In this document: positions 513-7,162 of the stretch, one piece after another | Layout of the letters: each line of letters starts with the position of its first letter | How positions within the stretch are numbered: position 1 is the stretch's first letter | NCBI GenBank assembly: GCA_027050205.1 | Contig: JALUCS010000110.1 | Location: 1-28,410, forward strand | Length of the DNA stretch: 28,410 nt | Source of the DNA: a candidate division WOR-3 bacterium | Lineage (GTDB): Bacteria > Hydrothermota > Hydrothermia > LBFQ01 | Direction of reading: 5' to 3' | Program-made: the position numbers and the translations under genes | Notes under the pieces: generated by a model | Databases searched by the model: none | Told to the model about the DNA's origin: nothing | Seen by the model: only the letters and a program-made list of their open reading frames with translations

Positions 513-2708
513 ATGCTGTGGGTTATAACTCTTTCCTCCGGCATAGAAGCGAAGGCTGACTTAAGGGCCGTAGAGGCCTACAACGAGGGTATTCGTATGC
601 TCTTCACAGAGAACGCCGGTCAGCTTTCAGATGAGGTGGTTTTCTACAGCATGCACCCTTCGGTCGTCTATGTTCTCAAGGACGGGACGATATACATCAA
701 CGGAGTTAGGGTATCTTTTGGGTCAAAGCCGAGATTTATAACCGGAGATATGCCGCTTATAACGAAGATATCGTATTTTGGGAGGAACAAGGCCATAAGC
801 AACATACCGACGTACAGACGGGTTGTTTTGAAGGAGGTATATCCGAAGATAGATGCTGTGCTGACGGCTGACGGTAGGGGGGTCGTTGAGCTCCAGTTTA
901 TCGTCCGTCCCGGAGGGGATCCGAGCCAGATAAGGGTTGAGACGGATGGGGATGGGGAGGTGAAGGAGAATGGGAATGGCCTTTACATCGTCAAGGGTGG
1001 TAAGGAGGTCGTGAGGGTAAGCAACCTGAAGGCGTATCAGGGGGCGGAGGAGGTGGAGGTTAAGGTGGATGTAAAGGGTGAAGAAGTTCGGTTCATAGTT
1101 GATGATTGGGACGAAAAGCATACGCTTGTGATTGACCCTGTTATAACAACTATTTTGGCTTCTGGACATTACGATCGTGCCGAAGCTTTAACAATATACG
1201 CTGGTTATGTATATATAGCTGGAAAAACAGATTTTTCTGCAAATTTCTCACAAAGCAGGAATTTCTTCGGTACAAGTGATGGACTGCAAGATGCTTTTGT
1301 AAGTAAATTGGATTTGAATTTATCGACACATATCGCTACCGCTATTTTAGCTTCCACCGGTTCTGACGGAGCTCATGCTGTAATAGCAGACAGTAGCGGA
1401 GTTTATGTAGCTGGATGGACTACAAACTACTCTAACTTTGCTCCAAGTAGGAATGTTTTTGGCACTACAGGTTCAACCGACGCCTTTATAAGCAAATTAG
1501 ATCCATCTCTTTCAATTCACATAGCAACTGCTATTTTAACTTCCAGCGGTTCTGATGAGGTTTATGATATAGCAATAGATAGTAATAGTATATATGTTGT
1601 AGGTTATACAGGAAATTCCTCTGATTTTGCGCCAAGTAGAATAATATTTGGCTCCAGAGGTGGAAGTGATGTGTTCGTTAGCAAATTGAATAAGGATCTA
1701 TCATCTCACATAACGACCACTATATTGGCTTCTACAGGCAACGATGGAGCCTATGATCTGGTGATCAAGGGAGATAATATTTATGTTGCCGGATTTTCCG
1801 GCAATCCATCAAATTTTGCTCCTTTTAGAACATTCTTTGGTGCTAACGGTGGTGAAGGAGGATTTATAAGTAAATTAAGCTCAAATCTGTCTGTTCATAT
1901 GGCCACAGTTATATTGACTTCTAGCGGTAATGATGTGATTAACTCAATAGCGATATATGATAGTAGCATCTACGCAGTAGGGCATACGGGTAATTACTCT
2001 AATTTTGCACCGGGTAGGAATGTTTTCGGTTCTCCTGGATGGCAAGATGCTTTTGTAAGTAAGCTAACTTTAGATTTGTCCTCTCACATTTCAACGGCTA
2101 TTTTAGCTTCAGATAGGGATGATTATGCGCTCGGTTTAGATGTTGATAGCAGTGGAGTTTATATCGCAGGGTGGACTGATAGATCGTCTAACTTCGGCTC
2201 TTTTAGGACGTTTTTGGGAACTCCCGGAGGAAGAGATGCTTTTATATGCAGGATGAATAAAGATTTGCTTTATTATATAGAAGCGGTTATACTTACTTCC
2301 AGTCAGGAGGATCAGATATCATATTTGGATATAAATAATAATAATGTTTATGTTACAGGATATACCGCAAATCCTGATGATTTTGCTCCCAGTAGAAATG
2401 TTTTTGGTACTACAGGAAGCGGTGATGCTTTTATATCAAAGCTCTCAATACCTCTTAATATACGAGAGAACCCCGATAAAGTTAAAAATTCGGTAGATTT
2501 TCTTAAAGGAATATTAATCATAAATGTTATATCGCCCGCCTACGTCGGCTTTGACGTATATTTGGCCGATGGCCGCCTGATCAGGCGCGTCAGCCTCGGC
2601 TACCTCCCCGCCGGGAGATACGAGTACCGCCTGAAGTTGCCCAAAGGAACCTACCTGCTGAAGGTCAGGGTCGGGGACGAGGTGAAGACCTTCAAGGGGA
2701 TAATGTAG
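513..2708 (+). CDS. Secreted SBBP-repeat beta-propeller protein with T9SS-like C-terminal domain
   Basis: N-domain has VVLKEVYPKIDAVL, LQFIVRPGGDPSQIR and TLVIDP, typical of SBBP-protein N-termini. Seven ~62-aa repeats follow (ILAS/ILTS..D..YV.G.T...DAFISKL). The C-tail is VYLADGRLIRR...LPKGTYLLKVRVGDEVKTFKGIM. Confidence 0.8.
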   Translation: MLWVITLSSGIEAKADLRAVEAYNEGIRMLFTENAGQLSDEVVFYSMHPSVVYVLKDGTIYINGVRVSFGSKPRFITGDMPLITKISYFGRNKAISNIPTYRRVVLKEVYPKIDAVLTADGRGVVELQFIVRPGGDPSQIRVETDGDGEVKENGNGLYIVKGGKEVVRVSNLKAYQGAEEVEVKVDVKGEEVRFIVDDWDEKHTLVIDPVITTILASGHYDRAEALTIYAGYVYIAGKTDFSANFSQSRNFFGTSDGLQDAFVSKLDLNLSTHIATAILASTGSDGAHAVIADSSGVYVAGWTTNYSNFAPSRNVFGTTGSTDAFISKLDPSLSIHIATAILTSSGSDEVYDIAIDSNSIYVVGYTGNSSDFAPSRIIFGSRGGSDVFVSKLNKDLSSHITTTILASTGNDGAYDLVIKGDNIYVAGFSGNPSNFAPFRTFFGANGGEGGFISKLSSNLSVHMATVILTSSGNDVINSIAIYDSSIYAVGHTGNYSNFAPGRNVFGSPGWQDAFVSKLTLDLSSHISTAILASDRDDYALGLDVDSSGVYIAGWTDRSSNFGSFRTFLGTPGGRDAFICRMNKDLLYYIEAVILTSSQEDQISYLDINNNNVYVTGYTANPDDFAPSRNVFGTTGSGDAFISKLSIPLNIRENPDKVKNSVDFLKGILIINVISPAYVGFDVYLADGRLIRRVSLGYLPAGRYEYRLKLPKGTYLLKVRVGDEVKTFKGIM

Positions 2709-2757: not shown

Positions 2758-5310
2758 ATGCTTTCGGAAACCTACAAGGGCAAGATAGTTTCAAACGTTC
2801 CCCTGTTGGACTACGCTGAGAGGTTAAATATAGCCCAATCCTACGGGTACAACGTCCACAAGATCCCCGCTGGCTACGTCTTAGTGGACCTCTACGACTT
2901 CACCCACAACGGGCTTTCCGAGGACCAAATGGGCGCCCTCTTCCGCGGAGACGAGGCCTACGCCGGCAGCAAGAACTTCCTGAAGATTCTCCGCAAGGTT
3001 AAGGAGATTTTCGGCAAGGATTGGGTGGTCCCCGCCCACAACGTAAGGGGGGCGGAGCATCTCCTGTTCAAGGCCTACGGTGAGAAGGCCGAAGTCGCCG
3101 CCTACCACCCCACCCCCACCTTCCGCGTCCTAGCCAGGTACTTCAACGTCCCCGTAAAGGAGTACGACACCCCCGACGACACCCCCGGCGGCACGCTGGC
3201 ATACATAAACACCACCCCCAAGAACGCCCATGAGATAGACCGCTGGATAAGGGAGGCAAAGGCCAAGGGGCTTATGGTGGTCGTGAACGCCTCCCGCATC
3301 TTCTCCCTCCTCGCCTTCCACCAGATCAGAGAGGGAGGCAAACCCTCGGATCTGCGCGGTAGGGTGGCCGAGGTTTTAAAGGACGCCGACGTGATAATCC
3401 TTGACGCCACGCACGACCTCTTCTCCCACGTTGGAGCCTTGATAATAACGGGCAGCGAAGAGATATACCGCAAGTTCCAGAGCTGGGTCGTCTCCTTTGA
3501 GGGACTCCACACCTACGGAGGTCTGGCCGGCAGGGACATGGAGGTCATCGCTATCGGTCTGGACGAGGCCCTTAGGGAAGACTACTACGTCTGGAGGTAC
3601 CACGAGGTCAAACGCCTGTACGAGGCCGTCAAAGAGGCCGGGTACGAGGTAGGTCCCCACTTCTCCCCCACCGGGTTCCCCATCCTGCACGACGACCCCG
3701 TCTCCCTCAACCTCGCCCTCTACCTCGCCGGACAGGTCAGGGGGAGTGCCAAGGCGAAGAAGGGACGTCTATGCCTCCACCTACCCCGCCGCACCTACAC
3801 CCGCGAACATTACGCCCACTTCGTAAAGACGCTGGCCTACCTGAAGGACAGGAGCCTCCCCAAATTGGTGGCGGCCTACGAGACGGACTTCCACGAGGAG
3901 GAGGTGATGGACTACGAGCCGGAGGGCCACATACCGCGGTACGACGTTATCCCCTACGAGGGCTACCCCTACCGCTTCAAGTCCGTTGAGCTTCTGAAGA
4001 TGCGGAGCCGCGAGTACAGGGAGAGGGCCATAGAGGAGGCCGGTTTCAACACCTTCCTGCTCAAGAGCGAGGACGTGTATATAGACCTCCTGACGGACTC
4101 CGGCACCTCCGCCATGAGCGACGAGCAGTGGGGAGAGGCCTTCTACAACGAGTGGAAGGACCCCTACTCCTTCCTGGCCCAGGCCGTTGAGGACGTCTAC
4201 GGCTTCCCCTACTTCATCCCCACCCATCAGGGGAGACAGGCGGAACATTTCATCTCCCAGGCCCTGATAAAGCCCGGCCAGTACGTCATAAACAACATGT
4301 ACTTCACCACCACCCGCTTCCATCAGGAGTACGCCGGCGGCATCTTCGTAGACCTGATAATCCCGGAGGCCCACGACCCGGCCGCGGAGCATCCCTTCAA
4401 GGGCAACCTTGACGCCGAGAGGGTTGAGGAGTTCATAAAGGAGAAGGGGGCGGAGAACATCGCATACATCTGCATAGAGACCAACGTAAATATGGCCGGA
4501 GGCCAGCCCGTATCCCTTGAGAACGTACGCCGCATAAGGGAGATAGCCGACCGCTACGGCATACCCGTGGTCTTTGACGCCACCCGCATAGCCGAGAACG
4601 CCTACTTCATAAAGACTCGTGAAAAGGGGTATGAGAACTGGAGCATAGCCCAGATAATAAGGGAACTCCTATCCTACGCCGACGCTGCCAGCATATCGGC
4701 CAAGAAGGACCCCCTGACCAACATAAGCGGCCTGCTCCTTGTGAGGGACCCGGACGTCTACGCCCGGATATACGAGTTCGCCACGGCCTTTGACGGCTCC
4801 CCCTACGACGGAGGCCTCGCCGACAGGGATCTGGCCATACTGGCCAAAGGGCTTTACGAGATGACCGACTACGATTACATAGCGAGCCGCATAAGGCAGG
4901 TGCAGTACCTCGGTGAGAAACTCCATAGCCTTGGGATACCGGTCGTCAGGCCCATAGGTGGCCATGCCGTCTATCTGGACGCCAAGAGGTTCCTGCCCCA
5001 CATACCACAGGACGAGTTCCCCGCCCAGATATTGGCCGCCGAGATATACGTAGAGGGTGGGGTGCGGACGATGGAGAGGGGTACCGTCTCCGCCGGGAGG
5101 GACCCGAAGACCGGAGAGAACCGTAAGCCCAAACTGGAGCTGGTCCGGATAACGATACCCCGCCGGGTCTATACGACCGACCACATGGACCACGTCGTTG
5201 AGGCCATCCTTGGCGTCTGGAACAGGAGGGACAGCATAAAGGGCCTTGAGTTCGTCTATGAGGCTCCCTTCTTGAGATTCTTCACCTCAACCTTCCGCAG
5301 GAAGGGGTAA
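2758..5310 (+). CDS. tpl: Tandem two-domain beta-eliminating lyase (tyrosine phenol-lyase-like)
   Basis: C-half has IDLLTDSGT, PTHQGR, NMYFTTTR, DATR, SAKKD (PLP Lys), MERG, VRITIPRRVYT and LRFFT. N-half is a diverged second copy with GDEAYAGS and TYGGLAGRD. Confidence 0.85.
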   Translation: MLSETYKGKIVSNVPLLDYAERLNIAQSYGYNVHKIPAGYVLVDLYDFTHNGLSEDQMGALFRGDEAYAGSKNFLKILRKVKEIFGKDWVVPAHNVRGAEHLLFKAYGEKAEVAAYHPTPTFRVLARYFNVPVKEYDTPDDTPGGTLAYINTTPKNAHEIDRWIREAKAKGLMVVVNASRIFSLLAFHQIREGGKPSDLRGRVAEVLKDADVIILDATHDLFSHVGALIITGSEEIYRKFQSWVVSFEGLHTYGGLAGRDMEVIAIGLDEALREDYYVWRYHEVKRLYEAVKEAGYEVGPHFSPTGFPILHDDPVSLNLALYLAGQVRGSAKAKKGRLCLHLPRRTYTREHYAHFVKTLAYLKDRSLPKLVAAYETDFHEEEVMDYEPEGHIPRYDVIPYEGYPYRFKSVELLKMRSREYRERAIEEAGFNTFLLKSEDVYIDLLTDSGTSAMSDEQWGEAFYNEWKDPYSFLAQAVEDVYGFPYFIPTHQGRQAEHFISQALIKPGQYVINNMYFTTTRFHQEYAGGIFVDLIIPEAHDPAAEHPFKGNLDAERVEEFIKEKGAENIAYICIETNVNMAGGQPVSLENVRRIREIADRYGIPVVFDATRIAENAYFIKTREKGYENWSIAQIIRELLSYADAASISAKKDPLTNISGLLLVRDPDVYARIYEFATAFDGSPYDGGLADRDLAILAKGLYEMTDYDYIASRIRQVQYLGEKLHSLGIPVVRPIGGHAVYLDAKRFLPHIPQDEFPAQILAAEIYVEGGVRTMERGTVSAGRDPKTGENRKPKLELVRITIPRRVYTTDHMDHVVEAILGVWNRRDSIKGLEFVYEAPFLRFFTSTFRRKG

Positions 5311-5367: not shown

Positions 5368-6675
5368 ATGGAAAGGTTGATAGTTAAGAATTTTGCTGGG
5401 ATCAAAGAGGCGGAGCTAGAGTTCAAGGACATTACCGTCCTCATAGGGCCGCAGGCAGAGGGGAAGAGTGTTATTGCGAAGTTGATGTACGTTATGATGG
5501 AAATGATACAGCTTAAAGTTTTATATAAAATTCAAAGTATTGTAAGAAATAGAACAAAAGGTAAATTTGATTTTTTTAAGAATAATGAGTGGATACTGGA
5601 ATTTTACAAAATATTTCCAAAAGACTTTATAATTCCCAGAACTAGAAACAGAACAAGCTATATTATTTTTCAAATGGATAGAAATAGAAATATTTCTAGA
5701 TCAATCAAATCAAAGATCCTCTTGAGAAAGAACTCCCAAGAATTTGTTATAAGCAACATAGATCCTATTGCCCATGAAATGGCTGACAGAATAATTAGCG
5801 CCTCAACAAAATTCTTTGAACATAATGTCGCGATTAATATTGTTGATGTTATCTATAAGTTTCTATTTTATAAGCAATATCCAATACAGATATTTGTACC
5901 AGCGAACCGATCAATATATGCCCTTGTAAAAAATCTTCCTATAGTATGGAAAAGCTCATCACTAGATCCAGTATTCATAGATTTCGGTATGACATATGAA
6001 TTTATTAAGTCAAATTGGCTTAAAAAATTGAAGAATAAATACAAAAAAATTATAATTGAATTCTTAGGAGGAGATATTGTACGCAGAGATGATAGTGAAA
6101 TAATTAAACATTATGATGGACGCCAAGTGGATATACTTTTTGCATCATCCGGACAGAAAGAATTGCTTCCACTAATTTTAACCTTGTTATGGGTACGAGA
6201 GCAATTGTTCCCGAAGATATTCCTCTACATAGAGGAACCGGAGGCCCACCTCTTCCCGGAGACCCAAAAGAAACTCGTGGACCTCATAGCCGAAGTCTAT
6301 AACGCCCTTGAGGGAAGGCTACGCCTCGTAATCACCACCCACAGCCCATATATCCTTACCGCATTGAACAACCTCCTGTATGCGGGATACATACGCGACA
6401 AGTTCAAAGCTCGCAAAGATGTTGCCGCCAAATTGGAAAAGGTACTCCGGAGGCAAGAAAATATCCCTTCCTTAGGATCAAGGATAATTTCCCCCTCAAA
6501 AGTTGCCGTATATGAGGTTAAACGCTCTGGAACTCGTTCAATATTAGATGAAAACGGTTTAATAAGCGATAGTTATATGGATGAAATTGCAGATGAGCTA
6601 CACAGGGAAGAGGAAGAACTGTATGACATCAAATGGGAGGTGGAACGTGGCTCTGAAAGATATCTGGAGCAGTAA
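5368..6675 (+). CDS. ABC-class ATPase (AAA_15/AAA_21, OLD/AbiEii-like)
   Basis: LIVKNFAGIK at the start, Walker A GPQAEGKS, signature ASSGQKE, Walker B/D-loop YIEEPEAHLFP and H-loop ITTHSPYIL. The core is AT-rich. Confidence 0.85.
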   Translation: MERLIVKNFAGIKEAELEFKDITVLIGPQAEGKSVIAKLMYVMMEMIQLKVLYKIQSIVRNRTKGKFDFFKNNEWILEFYKIFPKDFIIPRTRNRTSYIIFQMDRNRNISRSIKSKILLRKNSQEFVISNIDPIAHEMADRIISASTKFFEHNVAINIVDVIYKFLFYKQYPIQIFVPANRSIYALVKNLPIVWKSSSLDPVFIDFGMTYEFIKSNWLKKLKNKYKKIIIEFLGGDIVRRDDSEIIKHYDGRQVDILFASSGQKELLPLILTLLWVREQLFPKIFLYIEEPEAHLFPETQKKLVDLIAEVYNALEGRLRLVITTHSPYILTALNNLLYAGYIRDKFKARKDVAAKLEKVLRRQENIPSLGSRIISPSKVAVYEVKRSGTRSILDENGLISDSYMDEIADELHREEEELYDIKWEVERGSERYLEQ

Positions 6676-7162
6676 GTGTGTTAAGGATGTAATTCCCCAT
6701 AACAATGGTCGTAGTACGAGTATATGCGATAAAAGGGGAAGAAAATGCCTCCAAATTTTTAAGGGAAAACCGGGAGAACTGTACGTTTTTGAATTTGATG
6801 GGTGTATATTGAGGGATAAAAATGTTAGAAAATGCGATTATGTGGCAGAATTTTTTCATAACAACCGATGGATGACAAGCTATTTGATAGAACTAAAGGG
6901 AAATAAAATAAAGGAAGCGATTGAACAGATAGAATCTTCATACAGAATTTTGAAGAAAAATTATAACCTTAACGATAAAAACACCAAAATAATCTGTATA
7001 ATCATCTTTTCCGGACGTCAGAGCATACCAAGAAGGCACGCAAGCCAAAGGGAGTTCTTGGATACCGAGATTAGGAGAAGAGGGCTTAATGTTGAAAGAT
7101 GTTTCATAAAACGGAATAAACAGGTTATAAGGATTGATGTAGATAACGATAGATATTGGTAG
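6647..7162 (+). CDS. Small basic protein with PD-(D/E)xK-like nuclease motif
   Basis: Motif RKCDY...YLIELKG..IKEAIEQI. Likely start is GTG 6647, with GGAGG at 6636-6640, overlapping the end of the ATPase. AT-rich. Confidence 0.65.
   Translation: MALKDIWSSKCVKDVIPHNNGRSTSICDKRGRKCLQIFKGKPGELYVFEFDGCILRDKNVRKCDYVAEFFHNNRWMTSYLIELKGNKIKEAIEQIESSYRILKKNYNLNDKNTKIICIIIFSGRQSIPRRHASQREFLDTEIRRRGLNVERCFIKRNKQVIRIDVDNDRYW

What the first reader, a model, noticed from the sequence alone, without database searches (positions are those of the whole stretch)
2758..5310. Single-chain pseudo-dimeric tyrosine phenol-lyase whose halves lost complementary catalytic residues
Seen: the 850-aa ORF is two tandem TPL/tryptophanase domains with a junction near nt 3960. 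The N-half has lost the cis PLP machinery: DATHD (His219) replaces S.KKD, NASR replaces DATR, and LCLHLPRR replaces VR.TIPRR. It keeps intact GDEAYAGS (Tyr68) and FEGLHTYGGLAGRD. The C-half has the cis machinery (DLLTDSGT, QGR, DATR, SAKKD Lys650, MERG, VRITIPRR) but lacks those two loops, reading GEAFYNEWKD and FDGSPYDGGLADRD instead. Established: in TPL and TnaA each active site lies at the catalytic-dimer interface, and the catalytic Tyr (Tyr71 in C. freundii TPL) and the YGG loop come from the partner subunit. Inference: duplication-fusion followed by reciprocal subfunctionalisation gave one live site (C-half Lys plus N-half Tyr). The other pocket is dead and could be regulatory or purely structural. 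FTTT, MERG and LRFF favour tyrosine over tryptophan as substrate.
Basis: partly seen in the sequence, partly recalled or inferred. Interest (0 to 1): 0.88.

Follow-up and report, generated by a model that had tools for sequence, protein, structure and literature searches.

The report
Fused two-half tyrosine phenol-lyase
One gene joins two copies of a vitamin-B6 enzyme that splits tyrosine into phenol; each copy keeps only the active-site parts the other has lost, and the working site probably forms between two such chains rather than inside one.

Summary
Confirmed. ORF 2758-5310 (850 aa) is two tandem tyrosine phenol-lyase (TPL) units. It is no assembly artefact: single contigs bridge the junction in 4 of 4 runs laid, and 96 full-length fused clusters share the pattern. 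Front halves keep the residues a TPL subunit lends its neighbour (Tyr71 93/96, Tyr291 95/96). Back halves keep the PLP lysine and the four cis tyrosine-specificity residues (96/96) and lack both tyrosines (0/96). So there is one live site per chain, most likely acting on tyrosine; this genome's other family member is a normal tryptophanase. Correction: folding suggests the linker joins the non-catalytic, arm-swapped pair, so Tyr68 would serve Lys650 of a second chain in an (N-C)2 dimer (about 65%, indirect evidence). A regulatory dead pocket is unsupported, and internal duplication is unproven. The same logic is known in glycine decarboxylase and serine palmitoyltransferase. My paper searches found no description in TPL/tryptophanase, and NCBI often calls only the back half. 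This scan found the family before on three other genomes. No activity was measured.

The parts
2758..5310 (+). Gene for an 850-aa protein of two tandem TPL-type units (P0001)
   Evidence: PF01212, 2 stretches; TIGR02618 784.8 bits for the whole protein
2758..3921 (+). Front unit (aa 1-388): no PLP lysine, shortened; donor of the partner-subunit loops
   Evidence: 114 synonymous against 40 non-synonymous codon differences in 390 codons versus the G072 orthologue
2773..2796 (+). Front N-terminal arm strand (aa 6-13), part of the predicted non-catalytic four-stranded sheet
   Evidence: DSSP, pLDDT 95; sheet residues of E. coli TnaA in PMC2770544
2947..2970 (+). First donated loop (aa 64-71): Tyr68 = TPL Tyr71, the general acid; Glu66 = TPL Glu69
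   Evidence: Tyr in 93 of 96 front halves (3 misses are N-truncated), 0 of 96 back halves
3412..3414 (+). His219, at the place of the PLP lysine (TPL Lys257)
   Evidence: Lys is present here in 4 of 96 front halves
3496..3537 (+). Second donated loop (aa 247-260): Leu250 = TPL Met288, Tyr253 = TPL Tyr291 / E. coli Tyr307
   Evidence: Leu 95 of 96, Tyr 95 of 96 front halves; Tyr 0 of 96 back halves
3922..3954 (+). Short linker (about aa 389-399)
   Evidence: P408-to-K11 spacing is 63-79 residues in 89 and 39-43 in 7 of 96, against about 59 for a direct head-to-tail join
3955..5307 (+). Back unit (aa 400-850): full TPL fold with all cis catalytic residues
   Evidence: Z 58.4, rmsd 1.2 A, 447 aligned to 6dvx_A
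3970..3993 (+). Back N-terminal arm strand (aa 405-412): a strand in the full chain, unpaired when the half is folded alone
4132..4161 (+). Degenerate first loop of the back unit (aa 459-468; Tyr71 region lost)
4303..4314 (+). Phe516/Thr517 = TPL Phe123/Thr124
   Evidence: 96 of 96 back halves
4696..4710 (+). PLP-lysine motif; Lys650 = TPL Lys257
   Evidence: 96 of 96 back halves
4789..4830 (+). Degenerate second loop of the back unit (Asp684 for Tyr291, Asp689 for Gly296)
5071..5082 (+). Met772/Arg774 = TPL Met379/Arg381
   Evidence: 96 of 96 back halves
5272..5283 (+). Phe841/Phe842 = TPL Phe448/Phe449
   Evidence: 96 of 96 back halves

Best explanation
A tyrosine phenol-lyase (L-Tyr to phenol, pyruvate and ammonium) in which two subunits of the usual homotetramer are fused and have divided the work. 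The back unit binds PLP on Lys650 and holds the substrate (Thr517, Met772, Arg774, Arg797, Phe841/842). The front unit lends Tyr68 (general acid), Tyr253, Leu250 and Glu66. The opposite pocket is empty scaffold, so there is one live site per chain. Most likely the chain spans the non-catalytic, arm-swapped pair of the tetramer; two chains then assemble head-to-tail into (N-C)2, and each front unit completes the site of the other chain's back unit, giving two live sites instead of four. Shown: residue pattern, family, fold. Inferred: activity and substrate (about 80%), one PLP per chain (about 88%), sites formed between chains (about 65%). The confidence given is for all three together.
For: Residue pattern across 96 fused clusters. 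Tyr74 and Tyr307 of E. coli TnaA bind the PLP phosphate of the neighbouring subunit (PMC2770544, passages); Tyr-72* comes from the other chain of the catalytic dimer (PMC11301627, passages). Four of the five residues that tell TPL from tryptophanase (PMC5805759, passages) are TPL-type in 96 of 96; the fifth is Leu, not Phe, and comes from the front unit (95 of 96; Leu also in 6 of 19 single TPLs). Unlinked halves dock through the catalytic-type interface (front 65-72, 245-251, 255-260; contacts 66-655, 66-449): score 0.90, best of 3 controls 0.00, a mark reached by 116 of 157 solved and 2 of 215 mismatched pairs (counts hold only roughly here), runs agree in at least 95% of contacts, partner pLDDT 92; this may reflect likeness to solved TPL dimers. 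Topology: the linked chain (pLDDT 94.7, pTM 0.93) has strands 6-13, 53-54, 405-412 and 453-454. These correspond to TnaA 12-17 and 58-60 of both subunits, the non-catalytic sheet. The back half alone has neither of its two strands and its first ten residues fall to pLDDT 53 from 96. Sole TPL: the window genome's other family member is tryptophanase-type, as are 18 of 18 second copies fetched from fusion-bearing relatives. Both halves are under purifying selection.
Against: No activity, cofactor or oligomer measurement. The topology rests on secondary-structure and confidence strings, not coordinates; the two folds used different alignments (93 and 48 rows), and 3 of 5 full-chain models scored lower (84-87), so other packings were probably sampled. 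Four close relatives (P0004, P0005, P0007, P0008) have Lys at the front-half 257 position, though they lack the TDSG, QGR and FTT motifs. The back half alone scores 650 bits, under the TIGR02618 cut-off of 720.7. A fused active site could have shifted to a tyrosine analogue.
Confidence: 0.5

Rival explanations
1. Same enzyme and same division of labour, but the chain spans the catalytic pair, so Tyr68 and Lys650 meet within one chain.
For: Unlinked halves dock through the catalytic interface in 3 of 3 runs. The residue pattern fits this equally well. Three earlier scan notes read it this way (AI notes, not evidence).
Against: The linked model pairs both N-terminal arms, which belongs to the non-catalytic interface, and its two donated loops are among its least confident parts (pLDDT 84, 84, 77). 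Linkers add only about 4-20 residues over a head-to-tail join, and 7 of 96 are shorter still. I could not measure the distance the linker would have to span.
Confidence: 0.27
2. The split architecture is as described, but the live site prefers another substrate (a ring-substituted tyrosine, an S-substituted cysteine, or tryptophan).
For: TPLs also eliminate Cys, Ser and S-methyl-Cys (PMC10170061 table). The gene has no conserved neighbours that would point to a pathway. The Met288 position is Leu.
Against: Thr124, Met379, Arg381, Phe448 and Phe449 are invariant (96 of 96) and Tyr71 is invariant in all 93 complete front halves. The back halves nest among ordinary TPLs. A separate tryptophanase is present.
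Confidence: 0.12
3. The dead pocket binds a ligand (PLP non-covalently, or an amino acid) and regulates the live site; in some lineages it may keep a second PLP.
For: His97, Arg100 (70 of 96), Asp/Asn214 and Asp258 (83 of 96) are partly kept in front halves. Four keep Lys. Non-covalent PLP binding was proposed for the lysine-less half of glycine decarboxylase (PMC7259800, passages).
Against: The pocket residues vary freely: Phe123 3%, Asn185 1%, Arg217 14%, Arg404 0%, Phe448 7% of front halves. No new conserved front-half residue lines the pocket except Ser for Thr216. This copy has deleted the Asn185 loop.
Confidence: 0.09
4. Assembly artefact, or a decaying pseudogene fused to a TPL.
For: The window comes from a fragmented assembly (135 contigs). 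NCBI calls relatives as 459-467-aa back halves only.
Against: One contig bridges the junction in 4 of 4 runs from 4 studies, one of which may be the source (table 8). Open frames of 827-975 aa occur in 23 of 272 genomes of the phylum. Front and back halves each form one clade with largely matching branching. Purifying selection acts on the front half.
Confidence: 0.02

Closest known systems
Tyrosine phenol-lyase, EC 4.1.99.2 (Citrobacter freundii, Erwinia herbicola; PDB 2ez1, 1c7g, 6dvx; NCBIfam TIGR02618)
   Same: Fold (Z 58.4, rmsd 1.2 A over 447 residues, 53% identity); every cis catalytic and specificity residue in the back unit; Tyr71 and the Tyr291 loop in the front unit.
   Different: Known TPLs are homotetramers of about 456-aa subunits with four PLP (PMC10170061). 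Here two unlike units lie in one chain, neither complete, giving half the sites.
Tryptophanase TnaA, EC 4.1.99.1 (E. coli, Proteus vulgaris)
   Same: Same family and tetramer plan; the source of the interface assignments used here.
   Different: None of Asp137, Phe304, Val394, Ile396 or His463 is present in the live site. The genome has a separate gene of this type.
Glycine decarboxylase P-protein (GcvP / GcvPA+GcvPB)
   Same: A fold-type I PLP enzyme made of two related units, split or fused, in which the N-terminal unit lacks the lysine (PMC7259800, passages).
   Different: Different family and reaction (Pfam finds only PF01212 here). From recall, its two units form the catalytic pair; here the chain probably spans the other interface. 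The split here arose inside a family whose homo-oligomeric form is still common.
Eukaryotic serine palmitoyltransferase LCB1/LCB2
   Same: A heterodimer of related units, only one binding PLP, derived from a homodimer-like ancestor (PMC5519370, passages).
   Different: Separate genes, membrane-bound, different chemistry. A natural viral single-chain form is recalled, not checked.

Membership tests
Tyrosine phenol-lyase (TIGR02618) | PLP lysine and cis cofactor/substrate residues (K257, D214, N185, R217, R404, S51, Q98-G99-R100) | tested here: met
   All present in the back unit, 96 of 96. Numbering read from the 2ez1 chain and carried through P0118.
Tyrosine phenol-lyase (TIGR02618) | Tyr71 general acid and Tyr291 loop supplied by a neighbouring unit | tested here: met
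   In the front unit only: Tyr68, Tyr253; front-back catalytic-type docking predicted.
Tyrosine phenol-lyase (TIGR02618) | Specificity set T124, M288, M379, R381, F448 | tested here: met
   Four exact; the 288 position is Leu, as in 6 of 19 single TPLs.
Tyrosine phenol-lyase (TIGR02618) | Homotetramer of complete subunits, one PLP lysine per subunit | tested here: not met
   Front unit has His219 at the lysine position; back unit lacks Tyr71 and Tyr291. So it works like a TPL but is not a canonical member.
Tyrosine phenol-lyase (TIGR02618) | Score over the curated cut-off (720.7) | tested here: inconclusive
   784.8 for the whole chain, summed over both units; 650 for the back unit alone.
Tyrosine phenol-lyase (TIGR02618) | Releases phenol from L-tyrosine | not testable with these tools
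   Needs an assay.
Tryptophanase (TIGR02617, NF053783) | D137, F304, V394, I396, H463 | tested here: not met
   0 of 5 in the live site; scores 596.7 and 619.4, under the cut-offs 825.8 and 750.
Glycine decarboxylase P-protein | Sequence match to the P-protein family | tested here: not met
   Only PF01212 in Pfam; no GcvP model among the 7 NCBIfam hits.
Glycine decarboxylase P-protein | The two units of one chain form the catalytic pair | tested here: inconclusive

The most novel reading that the evidence does not exclude
A natural trans-complementing enzyme: the covalent link crosses the non-catalytic interface, so a single chain is inactive and phenol release needs two chains to pair, each lending its catalytic tyrosine to the other. 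Chain pairing, which in E. coli tryptophanase is the interface that opens in the cold or without PLP, would then act as an on/off switch. The family, with other independent TPL/TnaA fusions at earlier stages of decay, would record repeated steps from a symmetric tetramer to an obligate asymmetric one.
Probability: 0.35. Interest if true: 0.78.

Novelty: new variant of a known kind. Interest (0 to 1): 0.64.

Why it matters
It is a clean natural case of two copies of a subunit losing complementary residues, in a family whose intact form survives for comparison. It separates the donated loops from the cofactor-holding unit, so inter-subunit catalysis in TPL can be tested one part at a time, which a homotetramer does not allow. 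TPL is used to make L-DOPA and tyrosine analogues (PMC10170061), and an asymmetric scaffold from vent and hot-spring bacteria could be engineered on each side separately. The family is easy to miss: NCBI records often give only the back half, named tryptophanase, which lacks its catalytic tyrosine, and one recent tryptophanase mining study kept only 400-600-aa sequences (PMC12980246, passages).

Tried and rejected
Split two-gene forms. The 459-467-aa back-half-only proteins (P0085, P0086, P0306-P0312, P0268, P0391) looked like a natural split. Their start matches Met384, which lies in the front unit's last strand and is not conserved family-wide. A search for shorter stand-alone front units (aa 76-245, 30-466 aa) gave 1 hit among 330 candidates, a 167-aa fragment; this reaches close relatives only, so split forms are not excluded. 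P0137 and P0141 look like frameshifted or cut fusions.

Gene context. Neighbours differ among the 20 loci listed, even between families of one order; no pathway signal.

Taxonomy by locus scan. The genome-contig scan was swamped by single TPLs: 1 fusion among 80 loci.

Topology by fold search. I hoped single-chain glycine decarboxylase would align over both units; it was not among the 50 rows shown, which shows nothing either way.

Expression. No RNA holder was listed.

Origin. The AU test did not reject front+back sisterhood (p 0.108, 30 rows, quick tree, long branches). The careful tree did not finish and the quick tree was read. P0019 was dropped from the 97 long proteins before counting because it is a separate fusion with an intact back half.

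Literature. Eight full-text searches listed no paper on fused TPL/TnaA; I saw listings and abstract starts, plus term passages of ten papers. Subscription journals and supplements were not seen. The potassium-site role of Glu69/Gly52/Asn262 is recalled; one search did not give it.

Full report
Observation. The ORF at 2758-5310 encodes 850 aa with two PF01212 stretches. The back 450 aa match Erwinia and Citrobacter TPL at about 550 bits and tryptophanases at 378-414 bits; the front 400 aa match both weakly (117-127 bits). The halves are 24% identical.

Not an artefact. A single contig bridges the junction in each of 4 runs from 4 studies; one may be the source. A whole-length search listed 120 proteins; with the query, 97 of 121 are 780 aa or longer. 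I set aside P0019, a separate fusion, and counted 96. In the window's phylum, 23 of 272 genomes have the back half in an open frame of 827-975 aa, and 3 more in shorter frames that I read as cut by contig ends. Named members include WOR-3/Hydrothermia, Ca. Caldipriscus, Ca. Calescibacterium, Nitrospira, Chlorobiota, Aminicenantes, Elusimicrobiota and KSB1. The nearest named cluster (71%) is Ca. Caldipriscus, so the window is probably WOR-3 (inference). Against the G072 orthologue, synonymous to non-synonymous codon differences are 114:40 in the front and 110:19 in the back.

Residue pattern. I use C. freundii numbers, read from the 2ez1 chain and carried through P0118. Back halves keep T49, S51, Q98, R100, F123, T124, N185, D214, R217, S254, K257, M379, R381, R404, F448 and F449 in 96 of 96, and have Tyr at 71 and 291 in none. 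Front halves keep D68 and Y71 in 93 of 96 (the 3 misses are N-truncated), E69 in 92 and Y291 in 95. In an unselected screen of 171 nearly invariant TPL positions, 11 are kept by both halves, 109 by the back only, 15 by the front only and 36 by neither; 12 of the 15 fall in residues 67-73 and 283-297. Bias: 79 of the 98 reference TPLs were fetched with a pattern covering the second loop, but Y71 and Y291 are also 19 of 19 in the other references. These are the loops a subunit lends its neighbour: in E. coli TnaA, Tyr74 and Tyr307 bind the PLP phosphate of the neighbouring subunit (PMC2770544, passages), and Tyr-72* of P. vulgaris comes from the partner chain (PMC11301627, passages). Against a clean story, 4 of 96 front halves have Lys at 257, though their TDSG, QGR and FTT motifs are gone.

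Substrate. Five residues separate TPL from tryptophanase (PMC5805759, passages). Four are TPL-type here. The fifth, Met288, is Leu250 of the front unit (Leu in 95 of 96; Leu in 6 of 19 single TPLs; Phe in TnaA). Thr124 and Arg381 bind the substrate hydroxyl and Tyr71 protonates the ring carbon (PMC9262865, passages). The window's genome has one other family member, tryptophanase-type. Of 20 fusion-bearing genomes with a second hit, I checked 19 (18 plus the window's own): all tryptophanase-type. The one single-unit TPL seen among the 20 regions fetched is in G264, which showed no fusion. So the fusion looks like these organisms' only TPL (inference; the genomes are incomplete).

How the units pair. 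Folded as two free chains with PLP, the halves dock through the catalytic-type interface, with front residues 65-72, 245-251 and 255-260, and Glu66 touching Asn655 and Gly449 (the potassium site by recall). Score 0.90, best of 3 controls 0.00; that mark was reached by 116 of 157 solved and 2 of 215 mismatched pairs, counts that hold only roughly for this job; runs agree in at least 95% of contacts; partner pLDDT 92. Likeness to solved TPL dimers may explain the pass. The linked chain behaves differently. Its best model (pLDDT 94.7, pTM 0.93) has strands at 6-13, 53-54, 405-412 and 453-454. These match TnaA 12-17 and 58-60, which from two subunits form the sheet of the non-catalytic A-C interface. 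The back half folded alone has neither strand, and pLDDT of its first ten residues is 53 against 96, and 79 against 95 at 451-460. The donated loops are among the least confident parts of the linked model (84, 84, 77). Two units cannot use both interfaces at once, so I infer that one chain spans the arm-swapped pair and that the front unit meets the back unit of a second chain. The reciprocal pattern requires front-back catalytic pairs; front-front plus back-back pairs would leave Tyr68 with no lysine. The linker is short: 63-79 residues from P408 to the next K11 in 89 of 96 and 39-43 in 7, against about 59 for a direct join. This is indirect: I had no coordinates, the two folds used different alignments, and three of five full models scored 84-87. 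I put it at about 65%. Either way there is one live site per chain.

Dead pocket. Its residues vary across front halves (F123 3%, N185 1%, R217 14%, R404 0%, F448 7%), and the only conserved non-canonical change near it is Thr216 to Ser. A structural role is more likely than a regulatory one.

Origin. Front halves form one clade (99*) and back halves one clade (99*, 96*) among ordinary TPLs, with largely matching branching, which fits one ancestral fusion (quick trees, long branches). The two clades are not sisters in the free trees, and sisterhood is not rejected (p-AU 0.108). Duplication and paralogue fusion both stand. Neighbouring genes are not conserved.

Comparison. It works like a TPL but fails the homotetramer test, so it is a variant, not a canonical member. 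The design is known in other fold-type I enzymes: glycine decarboxylase, whose N-terminal unit lacks the lysine (PMC7259800, passages), and LCB1/LCB2 (PMC5519370, passages). Eight searches listed no paper on a fused TPL or tryptophanase; subscription journals and supplements were not seen. No solved chain longer than 569 aa was hit by either half. Three earlier notes of this scan describe the same family on other genomes as one site per chain; I read them after forming my view, and they are not independent support. The likely inter-chain topology was not in the lines I saw.

Verdict. Real, conserved, apparently undescribed, with known analogues. Interest 0.64.

Noticed in passing
P0125, P0127, P0128, P0129 (864-909 aa): Other tandem fusions of this family, outside the main clades. 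They lack MERG, both halves keep a lysine at the PLP position, and in P0128 and P0129 the back half has lost Tyr71 while the front keeps it: possibly independent, earlier stages with another substrate.
   Followed up: partly
P0019 (944 aa, named Chroococcales MAG): A fusion of another kind: back half fully intact, front half with Phe for Tyr71 and Cys for Tyr291 but lysine kept. It would fit back-back catalytic pairing.
   Followed up: partly
L026 1483-2730; P0170, P0155, P0159, P0179, P0217: Stand-alone 415-447-aa tryptophanase-like paralogues with His for Tyr291 and no DEAY motif (Phe for Tyr71 in L026); lysine kept. Similar-sized frames recur in the window's phylum. A different activity or a partner subunit.
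   Followed up: partly
P0336, P0340, P0341 (437 aa): In-register deletion forms of a Chlorobiota fusion: the front unit joined to the last 37 or so residues of the back unit, with no PLP lysine. Real deletion or assembly collapse; not among the 51 loci.
   Followed up: partly
MEO0152004.1, MDT7904344.1, MDT7880814.1, WP_447863312.1: NCBI calls the fused gene from an internal Met as a 459-467-aa 'tryptophanase', hiding the front unit and misnaming a TPL-type site.
   Followed up: yes
window 5368-7162 (+): Low-GC (39-42%) AAA_15/AAA_21 ATPase plus a 193-aa ORF with no family match, directly downstream; weak likeness to PtuA and MAD3 far under their cut-offs. Looks like an inserted defence module.
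   Followed up: no
window 513-2708 (+): 731-aa low-GC repeat protein with DUF7948 and a short C-terminal tail that looks like a sorting domain (recalled, no family hit); the RIP and Csx26 hits are weak and have no passing stretch.
   Followed up: no
G000:C60:38011-39312 (L002): Ordinary tryptophanase-type gene, the genome's only other TPL/TnaA relative.
   Followed up: yes
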